From a virus (taxonomy: Duplodnaviria > Caudoviricetes): a stretch of DNA of 50,996 nt. The position numbers and the translations under genes are program-made. Positions 38,730 to 50,312 of the stretch are shown here, piece by piece. The stretch spans positions 1 to 50,996 of IMG/VR virus record IMGVR_UViG_3300027743_000036. The stretch is one strand, 5' to 3'. How positions within the stretch are numbered: position 1 is the first letter of the stretch; each line of letters begins with the position of its first letter. The notes under the pieces were generated by a model. That model was not told the DNA's origin. It did no database searches and saw nothing but the letters and a program-made list of their open reading frames with translations.

Positions 38730-40640
38730 TTACCCGTAATTAAACGCCCTCTGCCATCCCTTTGACTTTTTTTGGCTTACCTGCCACGCCCGAAATCTCG
38801 CCCCCCACGTACCCTGCGGCGCGGCCTCACTCTCCGCTTTAGGCTTTAGGACCTCGCGGTCCATCACGGTCAAAGCGTCAGCAATAACCCTGTCCCCGTG
38901 TCCCAAATATTCCGATTTATCCTTGTCCACCAACTCCGCGGGACCGCAACCGCCGCCCGGATACGTGATGTACGTTCGAGCCTGATCGAGGCTCTGTTTG
39001 TCCCGATTAACGATCCGGTTCTCAATCAAAGCCCGCTCGTAGGCGCGAAGCATGACGGCCTTGCGCTCGCGGCTGGAGTGCCAGCCCCATCGGGCGGTCT
39101 TCTTCTCCGCCACATTCCCCACCGTCTCGTCGCGGTAGTAGTAGGGATACTTCAACTCGTGGACGAACACGTTCCCGAAGTCGAGGCCGGGCCCGTTTTG
39201 CTCCCAAATGACAAACGGCAGACGTTGGGGAGCCCCGCCGCCCACCCAGAGACATAGAGCGGCAACGACTCTTGCGGCATTATAAGGAGCGGTTGTTCGG
39301 CTTGCCCATTTAGCGACGATCTCGCCTGTCTGTTTGCACTTGACCGAGACGACGCTTTCGCTCGTGCCTTCACCGCCAAGCCCTTTACTGAGGTCAATGC
39401 CGAGGATATAGCTGCGGCTCTGATCGAGCCGCCCGTTAGTCAACGGGACCCACACGGCCAATTCGCCGTCACGAGCCCGAGACAGAGACACCGCCTTGAG
39501 GTCGCGTGTGCGAAACAGTCGTGCCACGTCCGCGTTGGGGATCTTGTCGCGGAGTTTGATATTGAAGCGTTCCTTCGGCTCGCGGCAGTACAACGCCTGG
39601 TGCTTGTCGAGATCGGCGCGCGTGAAGAACGTATCGCCTACCGCGCCCTCCTGGGCGTAGATCTCCTTATCGACTTCCTTCCGGCCATTGCGGGCGATCT
39701 CATGCTCGATGAAGGGCGACGTGATCCGGTATTCCTTCGTCGTCTCATCCTGTAAGATAAAACGACCTGCGCCCTTGCGCGGGTGGTCCCACGCCATCAG
39801 GGAGAACACCTTGATCGTGCCGGAGTTCTTCCAGTTCGAGTAGCAACTGCCCGGCAGATCGACCGTCGAGTTCACGATACGGCAGGGACACACGGCGGCG
39901 GTGGACCGCTTGATGCTCTCGCCGTTGTTCATCTTCGCCATCTCATCAAGGAGAATCAGGCCCGCCCGGTCGCCGGAGAAGGCGGACTTGTTCGTGCTCT
40001 CGCCCGCAATCGTGGAACCGTTCTTCTCGTTATGCAGTCGCATACTCGTCCGATTGTCACGGCCCCGAACGAGGACGCCAGGCGGACACATCCACTCCGG
40101 CAGATAAGTATTTACGGTATCGTGCTTGAAAAACAGTGACTTACTGATCGGGCTGTCCACGAGGTCCTCAACACGGCTCATCTCTCGGAGTTGCAGGTTC
40201 GACCGACCGAACAGCCAGAGCCAGTGAATGAACAGGGCGATCAACCACGACGCCCCCATATCTCTCGACTTGTCAATGAGCCCGTCGTGCCCCTCAAGGA
40301 AACAGGCCAGGAGGAACTCGACCATCTCGTCCTGCCGCTCGTAGGTCAGGAACGGATGCAGGCTGACAGGCGACACGACGTAACTGTGCGTCTGTTGGCT
40401 GACCTCCATCTCCCAAAGCGTCCAGGCGAACGAGTTAATCCAGAACAATGCCGACTGCCTGCACGCTGCAAGCAGGTCTTTTTGCAGCACCGGATCGGAC
40501 GCCGCCTTATGCAACAGCCGCTCTCGGTAGGCGACGTTCTCCGCCTCCCGCATCGGGATCTTGAGGCCGGTCGCGGGATCGGTCCACCATTCTCTATTTG
40601 TTGGAAATGGTGTAGATAGCTCGGGTTTAACAGTCGTCAC
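38730..40640 (-). CDS. terL: Terminase large subunit
   Basis: KSRDMGASW Walker A, LILLDE Walker B, NST, ILGIDLS nuclease, HGDRVIA. Confidence 0.9.
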   Translation of the reverse strand: MTTVKPELSTPFPTNREWWTDPATGLKIPMREAENVAYRERLLHKAASDPVLQKDLLAACRQSALFWINSFAWTLWEMEVSQQTHSYVVSPVSLHPFLTYERQDEMVEFLLACFLEGHDGLIDKSRDMGASWLIALFIHWLWLFGRSNLQLREMSRVEDLVDSPISKSLFFKHDTVNTYLPEWMCPPGVLVRGRDNRTSMRLHNEKNGSTIAGESTNKSAFSGDRAGLILLDEMAKMNNGESIKRSTAAVCPCRIVNSTVDLPGSCYSNWKNSGTIKVFSLMAWDHPRKGAGRFILQDETTKEYRITSPFIEHEIARNGRKEVDKEIYAQEGAVGDTFFTRADLDKHQALYCREPKERFNIKLRDKIPNADVARLFRTRDLKAVSLSRARDGELAVWVPLTNGRLDQSRSYILGIDLSKGLGGEGTSESVVSVKCKQTGEIVAKWASRTTAPYNAARVVAALCLWVGGGAPQRLPFVIWEQNGPGLDFGNVFVHELKYPYYYRDETVGNVAEKKTARWGWHSSRERKAVMLRAYERALIENRIVNRDKQSLDQARTYITYPGGGCGPAELVDKDKSEYLGHGDRVIADALTVMDREVLKPKAESEAAPQGTWGARFRAWQVSQKKSKGWQRAFNYG

Positions 40641-42103: not shown

Positions 42104-42949
42104 TCAGAACCCCTGGAAACTATGACTGCCGAACCCCTCCGCCGCCGGGGCCACCTTGCGGGCCTCCGGCTGGACGACCTCGAACCGGCACAGGGCGAAC
42201 CACGCCCGCACCGCCTGCACCGTGTCGCGGAACCGCGCCACCGGTACCGAGAAATTCAACGTCTCCGCCTGCCCCGCCACGAGGACTCCGATCACCCGGC
42301 CCTGCATGTCAAAACACGGCCCCCCGGAGTTGCCGGGGAAGGCGGGACTGGTGGTCTGAATCATGGCGTGCCAGCCATACCGCCGGTAGGAGTCCCACCC
42401 AGGCCGGTTGTAGAGGTCCCTCGGCCGGGCCGAGAGAATCCCCAGGCTGACGGTATTGGCATTGTCCTTGCCGAGCGGACTGCCGAGGATAAACACCGCG
42501 TCCCCCACCCGCAGCGTGTCCTCTTGGGCAAGCTCGGCGTAGGGCAGGTTCGGCTCCCGGCCCGCGAGGTCCAGTTGCATGAAGCTAATGTCGTTCTCGC
42601 GGTCCTCGATGACGTACTTGACCTTGTAGGTCTTGCCGTCGTCCAGCGTCACCGTGTAGTCGCCGGGCTCCGCGTCCGAGACGTGCTTGGCGGTGAACAG
42701 AATGCCGTCGGAGGTAATCAGGCACCCCGACCCCTGGCAGACCCCTACCTTGCCGACGTGGACCACGGCCCCGCGGACCTGCTCAACCTGGTCGGCGATG
42801 GAGAGCGGCTGCTGTACTACCTGTACGGTCTGTATGACCTGGGGCTGAGGAGTCAGATGACTCATCGAATAGACCCCCGCACCCACTACCACAAGGAAAC
42901 AGGCGACTACCACAGTCACGACCGCATGGAAACCGTCGATACGTCCCAT
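42104..42949 (-). CDS. Trypsin-like (S1C/HtrA-like, no PDZ) serine protease with N-terminal TM/signal
   Basis: GSG, TAKHV (His), ENDISF (Asp), GSPLG, PGNSGGP (Ser). Confidence 0.9.
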   Translation of the reverse strand: MGRIDGFHAVVTVVVACFLVVVGAGVYSMSHLTPQPQVIQTVQVVQQPLSIADQVEQVRGAVVHVGKVGVCQGSGCLITSDGILFTAKHVSDAEPGDYTVTLDDGKTYKVKYVIEDRENDISFMQLDLAGREPNLPYAELAQEDTLRVGDAVFILGSPLGKDNANTVSLGILSARPRDLYNRPGWDSYRRYGWHAMIQTTSPAFPGNSGGPCFDMQGRVIGVLVAGQAETLNFSVPVARFRDTVQAVRAWFALCRFEVVQPEARKVAPAAEGFGSHSFQGF

Positions 42950-42953
42950 ACCT

Positions 42954-43301
42954 CTACTCCTGCAACCGCGCTATATAAAGAGACGCCCCGGATGCCAGGG
43001 CCTCGTAGTGCAGCGTCGTGTATCCTACGGGCATGTGGAACACGAGAATCCCGTTGACCGGGACGTACCAGACGGCGTTAGCCGCGGTCGTCACGTCCGC
43101 CACGCCCATAATCCAGTCGCCCCCGGCGGTAGGGTCGGCCATCGCAACGTAGGTAGCCCCGGTGGTGAGGGCCTGGGTGTGGTCGCCCCCCGTGGCTGCG
43201 TCAGTGAGCTTGATCCCGGACGCCAGAACCGGGGTGTATCCGAGGGCACCGGGGGGAACCGTGAAGCCGCCATTGTCGATCAATCGTGTGGCTGTCGCCA
43301 T
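42954..43301 (-). CDS. Hypothetical beta-rich protein, first late gene
   Basis: TAGGAG RBS. Confidence 0.65.
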   Translation of the reverse strand: MATATRLIDNGGFTVPPGALGYTPVLASGIKLTDAATGGDHTQALTTGATYVAMADPTAGGDWIMGVADVTTAANAVWYVPVNGILVFHMPVGYTTLHYEALASGASLYIARLQE

Positions 43302-43373
43302 CGTGTAGGTCTCCTAAAGTGAGCGTTGTGTGTGGGTCCCCTGGTCGTCAGTTATTCCCCGGTTGGGACGACT

Positions 43374-43424
43374 CCGCGCTACGCCGTATGGCGTTTCGGG
43401 GCGTGACCCCCTCATCAGGCGCAA
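43374..43424 (-). ncRNA. Hammerhead ribozyme (type I)
   Basis: Minus strand UUGCGC-CUGAUGA-GGGG(GUCACG)CCCC-GAA-ACGCC(AUAC)GGCGU-A-GCGCGG: full core, three stems, GUA cleavage triplet. Confidence 0.88.
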
Positions 43425-43537
43425 TAATACCGGGCCAGATGCCACCTGCGCAGGGACCCATTGGTGGCCCACGCACAACACCCACGTTAACGGGGACCTC
43501 GTGCGTGGCCCCTGGGCGGAGCCCGCGCACGCGTCCC

Positions 43538-43564
43538 TCTATAGTTCCCCGCAATCATGGGGTC
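43538..43564 (-). promoter_or_regulatory. 27-bp element (copy 2), candidate late promoter
   Basis: Identical to 619-645; upstream of structured late leader. Confidence 0.65.
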
Positions 43565-43762
43565 CGGAGGTCAGATTTATGGCCTGTTTTGGTGGATTTT
43601 TTACAATTTTTTGTGTGGGTGTTGTAAGTGGTTGATATACCGGGGGTTATGGATAGCGGAGTGAGTTTGTCGGGTATTGGGAATTTTAGGTGTGGCGCGG
43701 GGGTCCCGGGTACGGGGGGCCCAAGGCGGAAATACCCCAGCAAGGGTGGTACCGCGGGGGGT

Positions 43763-43861
43763 CGCGCGCGCACGCACGCGCACGCGCACGCGCACGCGCA
43801 CGCGCACGCGCACGCGCACGCGCACGCGCACGCGCACGCGCACGCGCACGCGCGCACGCGC
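43763..43861. repeat. (CACGCG)13 tandem repeat within ~99-bp perfect purine/pyrimidine alternation
   Basis: Read directly; tandem units at 43775-43852. Confidence 0.95.
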
Positions 43862-43970
43862 TCAACCCCACGTGCGCCATACCCTTAGCGTATGGCGCAC
43901 AATTCCACGCACGTAACTACAGCATACACAAGCACTTACAACTATCTGCAACAATCTTACGAGAATTATG

Positions 43971-43999
43971 TTGACAATCGCAAGCTCCTGTGGTAGACT
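43971..43999 (+). promoter_or_regulatory. sigma70-like early promoter PE1
   Basis: TTGACA-17 nt-TAGACT with extended TG. Confidence 0.8.
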
Positions 44000-44069
44000 G
44001 TGCATAGTGCTGGCAAGCATGGGACGCCGGGTTGTAGAGGCAACATTAACCCTATTGAGGAGATAGAAC

Positions 44070-44150
44070 ATGAAACGGGTAGCGCAAGCGATCATCGGCG
44101 GTATAGTGTTTATCGCGGCAATTGAACTAATCATTCGGTGCATGCCTTAA
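44070..44150 (+). CDS. Small hydrophobic peptide (26 aa)
   Basis: GAGGAG RBS; MKRVAQAIIGGIVFIAAIELIIRCMP. Confidence 0.5.
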   Translation: MKRVAQAIIGGIVFIAAIELIIRCMP

Positions 44151-44166
44151 GCAGAGGAGAAAATTC

Positions 44167-44391
44167 ATGAGAACACACTACAAAAACGGTGACGAACTCA
44201 GTCTACAACACACGGGATGTGATGGATGCAGTCCATCTATGGTCAATGGGCGCATCTGTCACGAGCAGGGGTGCCCGGACGCATGGAGAGACCAGGAACG
44301 CAAATGCAAGTGGTGCGGCAGTAAATTCCACCCGGTGGATCGGGAACAACTGTGCTGCGGCGAAGAGTGCGTACAATCCTACTGCAATTGA
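44167..44391 (+). CDS. Cys-rich early protein
   Basis: CDGC...NG..CHEQGCP...CKWCG; GAGGAG RBS. Confidence 0.7.
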   Translation: MRTHYKNGDELSLQHTGCDGCSPSMVNGRICHEQGCPDAWRDQERKCKWCGSKFHPVDREQLCCGEECVQSYCN

Positions 44392-44621
44392 GCCCCAATA
44401 TCGGGGCGGAAGGAGACAATATGACTACAGAATATCGGCACCATCCAAACACGGGCGAATATCAGGCGCGCGATAAATGCCGACATTGTGACACCATAAT
44501 TAATCGCTGGCACCGATGTAGCAAAGTGCCGCGACTATGTTTGGTGGAACGTACACGAGCCTGTCCAAAATGTGGCAAGGAATCAGGAGTGCGGGCATAC
44601 TATTGAGCCCCAATATCGGGG
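44387..44621 (+). repeat. 20-bp direct repeats ATTGAGCCCCAATATCGGGG (44387-44406, 44602-44621)
   Basis: Exact copies, each containing the TGA stop of the preceding ORF. Confidence 0.9.
44421..44606 (+). CDS. Small Zn-ribbon early protein
   Basis: AAGGAG RBS; CRHC...CPKCG. Confidence 0.65.
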   Translation: MTTEYRHHPNTGEYQARDKCRHCDTIINRWHRCSKVPRLCLVERTRACPKCGKESGVRAYY

Positions 44622-49395: not shown

Positions 49396-50202
49396 TTAGG
49401 TAGCGAAACCCTCTGTCTGGCCGATGAGATCTACCGGGAGCAAATGACAATAGACCTGCTCCGTGATTGCCAGCGAGCTATGCCCCAATATCTTACTGAT
49501 TACCTTTGCGGGCCTGCCCGCTTTAAACATCCGAGTAGTCCAAAAATGTCTTAGGGCATGGGGGCCGAACGCGGCGATACCGCAACGTACCGCCAGCCGC
49601 CCGCATAGGCGGTCCATCGCGCTCGGCGTCCCATACCTCTTGAGAAAGCGCAGTGTGTCTTGATCGTGGTTGCGTGTCAAAATATCCCTCGCTATGCTAT
49701 CCAGCGGAACGGTGCGGGGTTTACGCCCCTTACCACACGGGACTCGAACCGACAGCATATCGGGGGCAATGTCCTTCCATCGCAACCGCAACAGTTCCCC
49801 CCGGCGAACGCCGGTATGGGCAAAGAATTGGATCACGTCTTTTTCCATCGGCTCGCAGACCGCCAGCACGCGGGCATACTCCTCCTCAGTGAGCACCCGC
49901 TGCTCAGGATCATTGGGGGCCAGCGCGGGCACCTGTGCGGCCAGGTTGGGCAAACCATGTCGCTCGTGCTGCCACGTCCAGAACGATTTGAGCGCGGCCA
50001 GATGCGAGTTGGTGGTGTTACGGCACCGCTCGATCAGCAGCACATCTATGTATTGCTCGATGTGCAGGACTGTGACCTGTGGCAAGGGCGGGCTTTGCGT
50101 AAACGCGGCAAACCGCATCAGAATGCGTCTGTATTGATCGACCGTGTACGGGCTATAGTTTCGCCTGCAATAAATAAGCCACTCTGCTACTGCATTTTTC
50201 AT
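49396..50202 (-). CDS. int: Tyrosine recombinase/integrase (XerC/D-like)
   Basis: TGVRRGEL (R), GKGRK (K), HALRH, LGHSS, VY; N-terminal core-binding domain. Confidence 0.92.
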   Translation of the reverse strand: MKNAVAEWLIYCRRNYSPYTVDQYRRILMRFAAFTQSPPLPQVTVLHIEQYIDVLLIERCRNTTNSHLAALKSFWTWQHERHGLPNLAAQVPALAPNDPEQRVLTEEEYARVLAVCEPMEKDVIQFFAHTGVRRGELLRLRWKDIAPDMLSVRVPCGKGRKPRTVPLDSIARDILTRNHDQDTLRFLKRYGTPSAMDRLCGRLAVRCGIAAFGPHALRHFWTTRMFKAGRPAKVISKILGHSSLAITEQVYCHLLPVDLIGQTEGFAT

Positions 50203-50312
50203 ACCGCACCTTTTTCGTATCATCGGCCGAAGAGGATGGCGGGTTTACGAAAAACTCTATACGTCGAAAGTATGGCGCACCCGCGCGGTCCGCCTGGCCA
50301 TAATCAGCAGAT

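What the first reader, a model, noticed from the sequence alone, without database searches (positions are those of the whole stretch)
43319..43485. Hammerhead ribozyme in the 5' leader of the whole virion-morphogenesis operon
Seen: the minus strand at 43424->43374 reads UUGCGC CUGAUGA GGGG-GUCACG-CCCC GAA ACGCC-AUAC-GGCGU A GCGCGG. This has every conserved hammerhead core nucleotide, stem II (4 bp), stem III (5 bp), stem I (4 Watson-Crick + 2 GU) and a GUA triplet. The predicted cut is between 43380 and 43379, ~78 nt before the first late ATG (43301). Stem I can extend through CCCGGU/ACCGGG (43429-34/43358-63). The domain is closed by an ~18-bp helix (43468-85 with 43319-36) ending just before the TAGGAG RBS. 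Known: hammerheads self-cleave, leaving a 5'-OH end, and occur in phage genomes. Inference: the ~26-kb late mRNA is self-processed, which could set its stability or translation, or release an upstream structured RNA.
Basis: partly seen in the sequence, partly recalled or inferred. Interest (0 to 1): 0.85.

Follow-up and report, generated by a model that had tools for sequence, protein, structure and literature searches.

The report
Hammerhead ribozyme inside conserved phage RNA
A textbook self-cutting RNA (a hammerhead ribozyme) really is encoded just upstream of this phage's virion genes, but it is an optional plug-in of a larger, widely conserved and apparently undescribed folded phage RNA that in other phages sits among tRNA genes.

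Summary
On the minus strand, 43424->43374 reads as a complete type I hammerhead (HH). A descriptor scan finds it once in the window and in 0 of 300 shuffles. Scans anchored only on flanking, non-hammerhead sequence gave 190 unique homologous elements. Of 113 with an insert of 44 nt or more, 106 keep a perfect HH core, and stems I, II and III covary.

The interpretation needs widening. The HH sits on a peripheral stem of a conserved ~105-nt double-pseudoknot RNA (helices P0, A, B, C, D). This RNA also exists without any HH (50 of 190 have a linker of 12 nt or less). It lies on the tRNA strand inside phage tRNA arrays, or just upstream of terminase or late genes. It matches nothing in Rfam 15.

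HH-bearing forms are rare in large tRNA arrays: 4 of 107, against 26 of 83 HH-less forms. A close relative of the window's scaffold lacks exactly the HH module.

The predicted cut is at 43380|43379. The two products are predicted to stay base-paired, so release of an upstream RNA is unlikely.

No Rfam hammerhead model detects it, and no RNA data exist. Cleavage and function are inferred.

The parts
43472..43485 (-). P0, 5' strand of the closing helix (GUGGGUGUUGUGCG). It can extend to 43468 at the expense of helix B.
   Evidence: Read. An uninterrupted run of 12 bp was found for the window. A closing helix of 10 bp or more occurs in 67 of 184 family members, against 10 of 184 mismatched-partner controls.
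43468..43473 (-). Conserved CGUGGG block at the 5' edge of the core.
   Evidence: Nearly invariant in alignments A2 and A6.
43441..43468 (-). Hairpin A: GCCACC (43468-43463) pairs with GGUGGC (43446-43441). Its loop carries the 5' strand of helix B.
   Evidence: 5 of 6 pairs covary. 97.6% of cells are paired in the HH-bearing set and 100% in the HH-less set. RNAalifold predicts it independently.
43453..43460 (-). Pseudoknot helix B, 5' strand (UGGGUCCC), inside the loop of hairpin A.
   Evidence: 8 of 8 pairs covary. An uninterrupted helix of 6 bp or more with the element's own 3' tail is present in 184 of 184 elements.
43435..43440 (-). Conserved single-stranded AUCUGG linker.
   Evidence: Invariant or nearly so in A2 and A6. 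Part of it was fixed by my search pattern.
43429..43434 (-). Helix C, 5' strand (CCCGGU). This is the distal continuation of hammerhead stem I.
   Evidence: The last pair (43429 with 43363) covaries. Phages found by BLAST rather than by my pattern show CCCGAC/GUCGGG and CCCAGC/GCUGGG.
43374..43424 (-). Type I hammerhead. Stem I 5' strand 43424-43419; C3-A9 43418-43412; stem II 43411-43398; G12-A14 43397-43395; stem III 43394-43381; A17 43380; stem I 3' strand 43379-43374. The predicted scissile bond is 43380|43379.
   Evidence: (1 hit, 0 of 300 shuffles).
43372..43379 (-). Conserved (G/C)CGYGGAG block. It is the 3' strand of stem I and the first nucleotides of the 3' cleavage product.
   Evidence: Conserved in both the HH-bearing and the HH-less alignments.
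43344..43372 (-). Hairpin D: GUCGUC (43372-43367) pairs with GACGAC (43349-43344). Its loop holds the 3' strand of helix C (ACCGGG, 43363-43358) and the conserved GAAUAACU (43357-43350). Helices C and D together form an H-type pseudoknot.
   Evidence: Helix D: 4 of 6 pairs covary with 98% paired; 6 of 6 pairs covary with 100% paired in the HH-less set.
43333..43340 (-). Pseudoknot helix B, 3' strand (GGGACCCA).
43319..43332 (-). P0, 3' strand of the closing helix.
43299..43316 (-). UAGGAG (43316-43311) and the ATG (43301-43299) of the first ORF of the late run (115 aa, no family found).

Best explanation
The window encodes, on the minus strand at 43485-43319, one member of a widespread phage RNA family. 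The family core is about 105 nt: a closing helix P0 and two interlocked H-type pseudoknots (A with B, C with D). In this member, as in a little over half of the family members I sampled, a peripheral stem in loop 1 of the second pseudoknot is capped by a complete type I hammerhead. Shown here: the sequence, the covariation, and the presence or absence of the hammerhead module. Inferred: as the RNA is made, the hammerhead folds and cuts between A43380 and G43379. This leaves a 2',3'-cyclic phosphate on the upstream piece, which holds P0-5', hairpin A, C-5' and the ribozyme body. It leaves a 5'-OH on the downstream piece, which starts GCGCGGAG and holds hairpin D, B-3', P0-3', the RBS and the late genes. 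The cut breaks the covalent link between upstream transcripts and the late-gene RNA. The two pieces stay base-paired through stem I, C, B and P0, so the late RNA starts with a 5'-OH buried in a stable structure. I take the role of the cut to be supplying a chain break next to the scaffold core. In tRNA arrays that break is supplied by RNase P and RNase Z acting on the tightly flanking tRNAs. What the scaffold itself does remains unknown.
For: The motif is complete and non-random. BLAST against named phages hits only the element itself (window 43441-43343), in Arthrobacter phages Karkharias and Constance. [quoted passage not shown] Scans anchored on scaffold letters only gave 190 unique elements. 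107 have a perfect CUGANGA...GAAA core, and 106 of the 113 with inserts of 44 nt or more do. Among the 57 first parsed there are 45 distinct stem II hairpins and 46 distinct stem III hairpins. N7 is U30/C21/A6 and H17 is C38/A15/U4, never G, although non-G was a condition of my parser. Pair counts on 50 HH-bearing elements: 87.8% of cells paired against 66.3% in shuffles; 442 double-change cells against 159; 0 of 500 shuffles reach either value; slid controls give 34-42%. The HH-less scaffold keeps helices A, C and D at 99.7-100% paired with covariation, and helix B is present in 184 of 184. L149 has the same scaffold subtype as the window but reads CCCGGUAAU-CGCGGAG where the window has the hammerhead. 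Mycobacterium phage Gaia carries U3 and A8 in place of C3 and G8. From recalled knowledge, C3 and G8 pair in the active site, so this is a compensatory pair. Context: tRNAs, where present, are on the same strand (opposite-strand tRNAs occur in 1 of 190 loci). Large arrays hold 4 of 107 HH forms against 26 of 83 HH-less forms (Fisher p = 3e-7, relatedness not corrected). Terminase families lead among downstream ORFs. The window's downstream run holds TerL, portal, head and tail genes. Cofold gives -82.5 kcal/mol for the two products together, against -42.8 and -12.5 apart.
Against: No Rfam 15 hammerhead model reports this site or five relatives at E<=10. No RNA data exist, and the only run holding the sequence is a DNA metagenome. 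No promoter was found, so it is unknown whether transcription enters from upstream. Stem I has only 4 Watson-Crick and 2 G.U pairs. In the nested MFE fold of the whole element its 3' strand pairs instead with CUGCGC at 43453-43448, so misfolding could limit cleavage. Loop-loop contacts that speed natural hammerheads were not identified. The idea that the cut replaces tRNA processing rests on one association between non-independent sequences, and small-hairpin and linker-only forms also occur outside arrays. My search patterns fixed much of helix C and the AUCUGG and GGA blocks, so their invariance is partly ascertainment.
Confidence: 0.7

Rival explanations
1. The scaffold is a free-standing, trans-acting small RNA gene, like the tRNAs it travels with. 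The hammerhead only matures it into a two-piece RNA, and its position before the late operon has no consequence for late mRNA.
For: 59 of 190 elements have a same-strand tRNA within 300 nt, and 30 lie in arrays of 8 or more tRNAs. In arrays the flanking tRNAs lie within about 0-20 nt of my element boundaries. A long closing helix P0 makes a discrete domain. The sequence is conserved across phages of Actinobacteria, Cyanobacteria and Proteobacteria.
Against: In the window, only 18 nt separate the closing helix from the ATG of the first late ORF, and no terminator-like site was found between the element and that ATG. Any transcript of the element should therefore run into the late genes. Terminase and packaging genes recur directly downstream. 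This reading is compatible with most of the best explanation and differs mainly in emphasis.
Confidence: 0.3
2. This is a natural allosteric ribozyme. The double-pseudoknot scaffold senses a ligand, a tRNA end or a protein, and gates hammerhead cleavage by forming or melting stem I and helix C. It thereby times late gene expression.
For: Stem I is continuous with helix C of a highly conserved pseudoknot that has an A-rich loop 3 (GAAUAACU) and invariant junction nucleotides, a pattern typical of ligand-binding RNAs. This typicality is recalled and was not tested. An alternative pairing of the stem I 3' strand exists in the window. The two CGUGG blocks contain UGG, which could pair with tRNA 3'-CCA. 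That pairing is inference only.
Against: The scaffold is equally conserved where there is no hammerhead and no downstream gene to control, as in tRNA arrays. No expression platform was identified. No ligand clue comes from neighbouring genes.
Confidence: 0.12
3. The hammerhead is a selfish or neutral insertion. The scaffold tolerates it only because it cuts itself, and it confers no benefit.
For: The insertion point (loop 1 of the C/D pseudoknot) is a variable site. It also accepts plain hairpins and other inserts: 26 non-hammerhead inserts of 13-43 nt and 4 long non-hammerhead inserts. Close relatives differ by presence or absence of the module.
Against: 106 of 113 long inserts keep a perfect core, although their stems have diverged into dozens of different sequences. 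That indicates purifying selection on catalysis. Hammerhead presence is non-randomly tied to context. A hammerhead has no known means of self-insertion; this last point is recalled knowledge.
Confidence: 0.1
4. This is a chance motif, a decayed ribozyme, a protein-coding stretch or a DNA-level signal.
For: Rfam hammerhead models are silent. Mechanical ORFs overlap the region (43314-43481 and 43348-43554, minus strand). One GenBank record annotates a small CDS over the homologous place in phage Constance.
Against: 0 of 300 shuffles give a hit. Compensatory changes include G.U pairs that work on this strand only, and the hairpin lengths vary between members. The core is intact in the window.
Confidence: 0.03

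Closest known systems
Type I hammerhead ribozymes, including those in phage and prophage intergenic regions (Perreault et al. 2011, PMC3088659; I read the passages that a term search returned)
   Same: The core (CUGANGA, GAA, A15.1-U16.1, non-G at position 17) and the three-stem junction with an open stem I are the same. The phage setting is the same. That paper proposes that phage hammerheads cut long transcripts into operon-length or gene-length mRNAs, and names intergenic examples in phages PaP3 and Bcep176.
   Different: Here the ribozyme caps a helix of another conserved RNA, and that RNA also exists without it. Stem I continues into a pseudoknot helix. 29 of 57 relatives have A.A or U.U at 10.1-11.1. 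Rfam's hammerhead models do not detect it.
Theta (minimal HDV-like) ribozymes next to phage tRNAs (Kienbeck et al. 2024, PMC10879173; passages read)
   Same: Both are small phage RNAs with nested pseudoknots that travel with tRNA genes and are linked to RNA processing.
   Different: By that paper, theta ribozymes lie within about 5 nt of the tRNA and have the HDV fold. The present scaffold has no P3/L3 element, lies further from the tRNAs, and matches no HDV-type Rfam model. Any catalytic activity of the scaffold itself is untested.
Divergent hammerhead cluster missed by all six Rfam hammerhead models (bioRxiv 10.64898/2026.10.21.760802; passages read)
   Same: It is a prokaryotic three-stem CUGA-containing hammerhead candidate with 152 loci. 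Its best Rfam score is 26.4 bits against a cut-off of 34 for RF00163. This is a precedent for real hammerheads below Rfam thresholds.
   Different: No sequences or genomic context were visible to me, so I cannot say whether it is the same family. No surrounding scaffold appeared in the passages I saw.
Two-piece and fragmented functional RNAs (permuted two-piece tmRNA, fragmented rRNA; mentioned in the introduction of PMC10085705, otherwise recalled)
   Same: A functional fold is held together by base pairing after an internal break.
   Different: In those cases protein nucleases make the break. Here a built-in ribozyme would make it.
RiboJ-type synthetic insulators (hammerhead plus hairpin in a 5' UTR; recalled, no call)
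   Same: A hammerhead removes upstream RNA context and leaves a defined, structured 5'-OH leader before an RBS.
   Different: RiboJ is engineered rather than natural, and it has no pseudoknotted scaffold.

Membership tests
Hammerhead ribozyme (type I) | Conserved core C3 U4 G5 A6 N7 G8 A9 | tested here: met
   CUGAUGA at 43418-43412. The core is perfect in 106 of 113 long-insert relatives that were found without using core letters.
Hammerhead ribozyme (type I) | G12 A13 A14, followed by A15.1 paired to U16.1 | tested here: met
   GAA at 43397-43395; A43394 pairs with U43381. The A-U pair is present in 50 of 50 aligned relatives, though my parser required it.
Hammerhead ribozyme (type I) | Cleavage-site nucleotide 17 is not G | tested here: met
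   A43380, giving a GUA triplet. Relatives show C38/A15/U4. Non-G was a parser condition.
Hammerhead ribozyme (type I) | Three helices around the core, with stems II and III closed by loops and stem I open, supported by covariation | tested here: met
   Stem I: 2 of 6 pairs show double changes (columns 84-140 and 87-137). Stem II: 4 of 5. Stem III: 3 of 4. RNAalifold recovers stem I.
Hammerhead ribozyme (type I) | C3-G8 tertiary pair (recalled from crystal structures) | tested here: inconclusive
   Phage Gaia has U3 with A8, which is compensatory. L321 has U3 with G8. L064 has C3 with U8, which is broken. This is too few events to judge.
Hammerhead ribozyme (type I) | Match to the curated covariance models (RF00163, RF00008, RF02275-7) | tested here: not met
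   No match at gathering score or at E<=10. 0 of 5 relatives are found by RF00163. A model match is a detection aid, not a defining property.
Hammerhead ribozyme (type I) | Mg2+-dependent self-cleavage giving 2',3'-cyclic phosphate and 5'-OH ends | not testable with these tools
   This needs a bench assay. No RNA run is available.
Hammerhead ribozyme (type I) | Stem I / stem II tertiary contact that gives fast cleavage | not tested
   An A/U-rich 5' linker and the loop II sequences are candidates, but I did not test covariation between them.
Any Rfam 15 family, for the scaffold | Covariance-model match | tested here: not met
   15 loci at gathering score gave only tRNA and tmRNA. An HH-less element (L024:4405-4560) at E<=10 gave only noise of 11.1 bits or less.
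HDV-like / theta ribozyme, for the scaffold | P1-P2 nested double pseudoknot with a P3/L3 hairpin and P1.1 | tested here: not met
   Read directly from the sequences. The order A5'-B5'-A3'...B3' resembles P1/P2, but only 6 nt (UGACAU) lie where P3/L3 should be. No Rfam HDV-type match was found.

The most novel reading that the evidence does not exclude
The ~105-nt double-pseudoknot scaffold is a new class of widespread phage RNA with an intrinsic biochemical function: catalysis, or binding of a universal partner such as a tRNA end, RNA polymerase or a metabolite. Its fold or action needs a chain break next to the core. Evolution supplies that break in two interchangeable ways: tRNA-processing enzymes in tRNA arrays, or a built-in hammerhead elsewhere. 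This would be the first natural case of one ribozyme nested in, and serving, another conserved structured RNA.
Probability: 0.3. Interest if true: 0.88.

Novelty: new variant of a known kind. Interest (0 to 1): 0.72.

Why it matters
Hammerheads in phages have been known since 2011, but what they are for is still open. This case ties one hammerhead lineage to a defined partner. That partner is a highly conserved pseudoknotted RNA found in phages of Actinobacteria and Cyanobacteria and in contigs binned to Proteobacteria, Spirochaetes, Bacteroidetes and other phyla. The hammerhead's presence or absence varies naturally and tracks genomic context. This makes the function question testable: swap the hammerhead for the natural HH-less linker, or inactivate the core, in a cultivable Arthrobacter or M. 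smegmatis phage. It also puts forward a compact RNA of about 105 nt, rich in covariation and absent from Rfam, as a candidate new RNA class. Finally, it shows that Rfam's hammerhead models miss a whole phage lineage. Phage annotators currently place small hypothetical CDSs over this RNA.

Tried and rejected
Rfam searches for a hammerhead or any other family were all negative for the element: whole window at gathering score; 601 nt and 96 nt at E<=10; RF00163 and RF00008 alone; RF00163 on five relatives' records; 15 loci at gathering score; and an HH-less element at E<=10.

tRNA search: ARAGORN finds no tRNA in the window or in the two Arthrobacter loci. I therefore dropped the idea that the hammerhead trims an adjacent tRNA in this phage.

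HDV-like, twister, pistol and hatchet identities for the scaffold were considered. I rejected them from the helix order read directly and from the absence of Rfam matches. My comparison with twister and pistol sequences was from memory only.

Other ribozyme classes at the same insertion site were sought. Among 113 inserts of 44 nt or more I saw only hammerheads, three hammerhead core variants and four unclassified inserts. My pattern allowed spacers of at most 64 nt, so longer inserts were not sampled.

A third tertiary pairing, between the hairpin A loop (CAU or UGC) and the CGYGG block, was examined. The letters correlate with the two scaffold subtypes, but that is essentially one evolutionary event, so I do not claim it.

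The genome-contig scan looked at first like a universal bacterial RNA. Parsing showed that most of the 118 parsed matches are chance hits in GC-rich coding DNA, and about 15 are real elements.

Sequencing runs: no RNA holder was listed. No sigma-70-like promoter was found on the minus strand at 42800-44400.

Literature: seven searches, including the conserved strings themselves, found no description of the scaffold. Supplementary files were not opened; those of PMC3088659 and of the 2026 preprint might list members of this family.

No protein structure, complex or atlas tool was relevant.
Full report
1. THE OBSERVATION. UUGCGC (43424-43419) is followed by CUGAUGA (43418-43412), GGGG-GUCACG-CCCC (43411-43398), GAA (43397-43395), ACGCC-AUAC-GGCGU (43394-43381), A (43380) and GCGCGG (43379-43374). 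In standard hammerhead numbering, which I recall rather than take from a call, this gives C3-A9, a 4-bp stem II with G10.1-C11.1, G12-A14, a 5-bp stem III with A15.1-U16.1, A17, and a 6-bp stem I (4 Watson-Crick, 2 G.U). Stem I is the open stem, so the layout is type I.

The predicted cut at 43380|43379 lies 78 nt before the ATG at 43301. A descriptor I wrote finds this site once on both strands of the 50,996-bp window, and finds nothing in 300 dinucleotide-preserving shuffles. The extension CCCGGU/ACCGGG and the long closing helix are also as described.

2. THE NEGATIVE RESULT. No Rfam 15 hammerhead model reports the site. This holds for the whole window at gathering score, for 601 nt or 96 nt at E<=10, and for RF00163 or RF00008 run alone. 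RF00163 also finds none of five relatives. A 2026 preprint, of which I read passages, reports another prokaryotic hammerhead cluster of 152 loci that all six Rfam hammerhead models miss (10.64898/2026.10.21.760802). Such blind spots therefore have a precedent. I treat the Rfam result as evidence against the claim, but one that comparative evidence outweighs.

3. RELATIVES AND COVARIATION. BLAST of 601 nt against 50,697 phage records hit only Arthrobacter phages Karkharias and Constance, and only over window 43441-43343. The alignment shows compensatory changes:
- Stem II: GGGG/CCCC becomes GCGCC/GGCGC.
- Stem III: ACGCC/GGCGU becomes ACACC/GGUGU.
- Stem I: GCGC/GCGC becomes GCGG/CCGC.
- N7 changes from U to C, and every core base is kept.

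Conserved blocks outside the hammerhead let me search without using hammerhead letters. Pooled and de-duplicated, these gave 190 unique elements.
- 107 have a perfect CUGANGA...GAAA core.
- Of the 113 with an insert of 44 nt or more, 106 do.
- The 7 exceptions are L064 (G8U), L321 (C3U), L200 (an extra base in the core) and four non-hammerhead inserts.

In the first 57 parsed there are 45 different stem II hairpins and 46 different stem III hairpins. N7 is U30/C21/A6 and H17 is C38/A15/U4.

On a MAFFT alignment of 50 HH-bearing elements, the structure I wrote has 87.8% of cells paired against 66.3% in shuffles. It has 442 double-change cells against 159, no shuffle of 500 reaches either value, and slid controls give 34-42%. 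The relatedness of the sequences inflates such controls. Even so, the many independent pair types per column (for example columns 96-111: GC 22, CG 16, UA 7, AU 4) are hard to explain without a helix.

4. THE HAMMERHEAD IS A MODULE OF A LARGER RNA. All 190 elements share a core, written here 5' to 3':
- CGUGGG
- hairpin A, whose loop carries B-5'
- AUCUGG
- C-5' (CCCGGC)
- a variable insert
- (G/C)CGYGGAG
- hairpin D, whose loop carries C-3' (GCCGGG) and GAAUAACU
- CUAGG or CAGGGG
- B-3'

A long closing helix P0 often encloses the whole. A crosses B and C crosses D, so the fold is two H-type pseudoknots, the second nested inside the span of B.

Support for the helices:
- Helix A: 5 of 6 pairs covary.
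- Helix B: 8 of 8 pairs covary.
- Helix D: 4 of 6 pairs covary in the HH-bearing set. In 48 HH-less elements, helices A and D are 100% paired with 5 of 6 and 6 of 6 pairs covarying.
- Helix B was scored per sequence to avoid alignment slips. It is 6 bp or longer in 184 of 184 elements, against 67 of 184 with another element's tail. It is 8 bp or longer in 140 against 15.
- P0 is 10 bp or longer in 67 of 184, against 10 of 184 controls.
- Helix C was largely fixed by my patterns. Phages found by BLAST instead show CCCGAC/GUCGGG (Microcystis phage Mwe-JY26) and CCCAGC/GCUGGG (Mycobacterium phage Gaia and an M. abscessus prophage), which are compensatory.
- RNAalifold, run without my structure, returns helix A, helix C and stem I.

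The insert takes three forms:
- a 5-12 nt linker in 50 elements;
- a 13-43 nt insert without a perfect hammerhead core in 26, many of them a small hairpin in which CGCGG is the 3' strand;
- a full hammerhead in 107.

Seven inserts of 44 nt or more lack a perfect hammerhead core; they are the exceptions listed in section 3.

Hammerhead stem I is therefore a peripheral scaffold helix that may be absent, loop-capped or ribozyme-capped. L149 (an Armatimonadetes bin) has the window's scaffold subtype, with an almost identical D hairpin. It reads CCCGGUAAU-CGCGGAG where the window has CCCGGUAUUAUU-GCGC[core, II, III]GCGC-GGAG. Neither the scaffold nor an HH-less example matches any Rfam 15 family. 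Seven literature searches, one using the conserved strings themselves, found no description.

5. CONTEXT. The window is a complete virus record from a freshwater-sediment metagenome. It has no tRNA genes. On the minus strand, the order is an integrase (49396-50223), small ORFs, and the element. Then come a 115-aa ORF with a UAGGAG RBS, a trypsin-like protease, TerL (38730-40640), portal, major head and tail genes, reaching about 17.3 kb. The 'late operon leader' position is therefore correct.

Elsewhere the family has two habitats.

tRNA arrays. The element is always co-oriented with the tRNAs, and an opposite-strand tRNA occurs in only 1 of 190 loci. In Mwe-JY26 it lies between tRNA-Gln and tRNA-His. 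In Gaia it follows tRNA-Ser. In the M. abscessus prophage it lies between tRNA-Ser and tRNA-Trp.

Upstream of packaging genes. In Karkharias and Constance it precedes the terminal HNH endonuclease gene. Terminase large-subunit families lead the list for the first downstream ORFs of 58 loci. Among the largest ORFs within 3.5 kb downstream, 54 loci were scored and 32 were dropped for short flanks or no ORF. Pfam there finds Terminase_6N in 5, TerL_ATPase in 4, TerL_nuclease in 3, Terminase_6C in 3, DUF4055 in 2, and a portal and a head-tail connector in 1 each; these families may overlap on the same proteins.

The form tracks the habitat. Arrays of 8 or more tRNAs hold 4 of 107 hammerhead forms against 26 of 83 HH-less forms (Fisher p = 3e-7). 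A tRNA lies within 300 nt of 21 of 107 hammerhead forms against 38 of 83 HH-less forms (p = 1e-4). The sequences are treated as independent in these tests, which overstates significance.

6. MECHANISM. The sequence, the folds and the module polymorphism are shown. The following is inferred.
- The hammerhead cuts at 43380|43379.
- The upstream product (P0-5', A, C-5', ribozyme body) ends in a cyclic phosphate.
- The downstream product begins with 5'-OH-GCGCGGAG and carries D, C-3', B-3', P0-3', the RBS and the late genes.

A nested cofold model gives -82.5 kcal/mol for the pair, against -42.8 and -12.5 alone. The products should therefore remain a nicked complex, which argues against release of an upstream RNA. 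The likely consequences follow from established bacterial mRNA decay biology, which I recall and did not test. The late RNA is uncoupled from upstream transcripts. Its 5' end is a 5'-OH held in a helix, which makes it a poor substrate for 5'-end-dependent RNases.

Because the hammerhead is scarce where tRNA processing already cuts close to the element, I propose that the scaffold needs a nearby chain break, or that the transcript needs punctuation there. What the scaffold does is not known. Its cross-phylum sequence conservation suggests an intrinsic chemical role or a universal partner.

7. CAVEATS.
- In the nested MFE of the whole element, the 3' strand of stem I pairs with CUGCGC (43453-43448) rather than with its hammerhead partner.
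- No promoter was found.
- No RNA data exist.
- My anchors fix parts of the scaffold, and spacers were limited to 64 nt.
Prevalence cannot be stated.

8. VERDICT. The hammerhead is a new variant of a known kind. The scaffold is a strong candidate for an undescribed RNA class.

Noticed in passing
L002 (phage Constance) 2928-3038 and 2839-2931; L123 (phage Gaia) gene 147 start: GenBank annotates small 'hypothetical protein' CDSs over or abutting the RNA element (Constance genes 67 and 68; Gaia gene 147 begins at the element's 3' edge). These are probably mis-calls over a structured RNA. In Karkharias the same place is left unannotated.
   Followed up: partly
L001 2955-2985 and L002, same place (just 5' of the element): The sequence GGTTCGATTCCTCACGGCCCACC looks like a tRNA T-arm plus a 3' acceptor strand, but ARAGORN calls no tRNA. 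It may be a tRNA remnant or an att-like fragment.
   Followed up: no
L123 (Mycobacterium phage Gaia), about 2440-2510: Gaia's hammerhead core reads UUGAUAA, with U3 and A8 instead of C3 and G8. That is a compensatory change of the C3-G8 active-site pair. L321 has U3 with G8, and L064 has C3 with U8.
   Followed up: partly
Relatives of the window's hammerhead: 29 of 57 hammerheads have A.A (20) or U.U (9) at positions 10.1-11.1, where G-C is usual (25 of 57). This may be one reason the Rfam models miss them.
   Followed up: no
L104 2546-2711 and 2718-2890 (minus strand): Two hammerhead-bearing elements lie in tandem, about 7 nt apart by my boundaries. A 145-aa ORF and a 503-aa ORF follow on the same strand; neither ORF was individually identified.
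   Followed up: no
Window 43453-43441 versus relatives; alignments A2 and A6: There are two scaffold subtypes. One has CUGACAU in the hairpin A loop, CCUAGG before B-3' and mostly CGUGGAG. The other, which includes the window, has CUGUGCAG (CUGCGCAG in the window), CCAGGGG and CGCGGAG. The correlated A/G and U/C letters hint at a third tertiary pair.
   Followed up: partly
L024 3523-3882: A 266-kb phage contig carries a full tmRNA gene (116 bits) at the head of an array of more than 20 tRNAs, and that array also holds an HH-less element.
   Followed up: no
Window 42104-42949 (minus strand): The second gene after the element encodes a trypsin-like serine peptidase (Trypsin_2, E = 1e-26). It lies upstream of TerL rather than next to the head genes.
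   Followed up: no
Window 43486-43554 (minus strand): A GC-rich hairpin (CGUGCG...CGCACG around GGGC..GCCC) lies between the upstream ORF and the element. It has no U tract, so it does not look like an intrinsic terminator.
   Followed up: no
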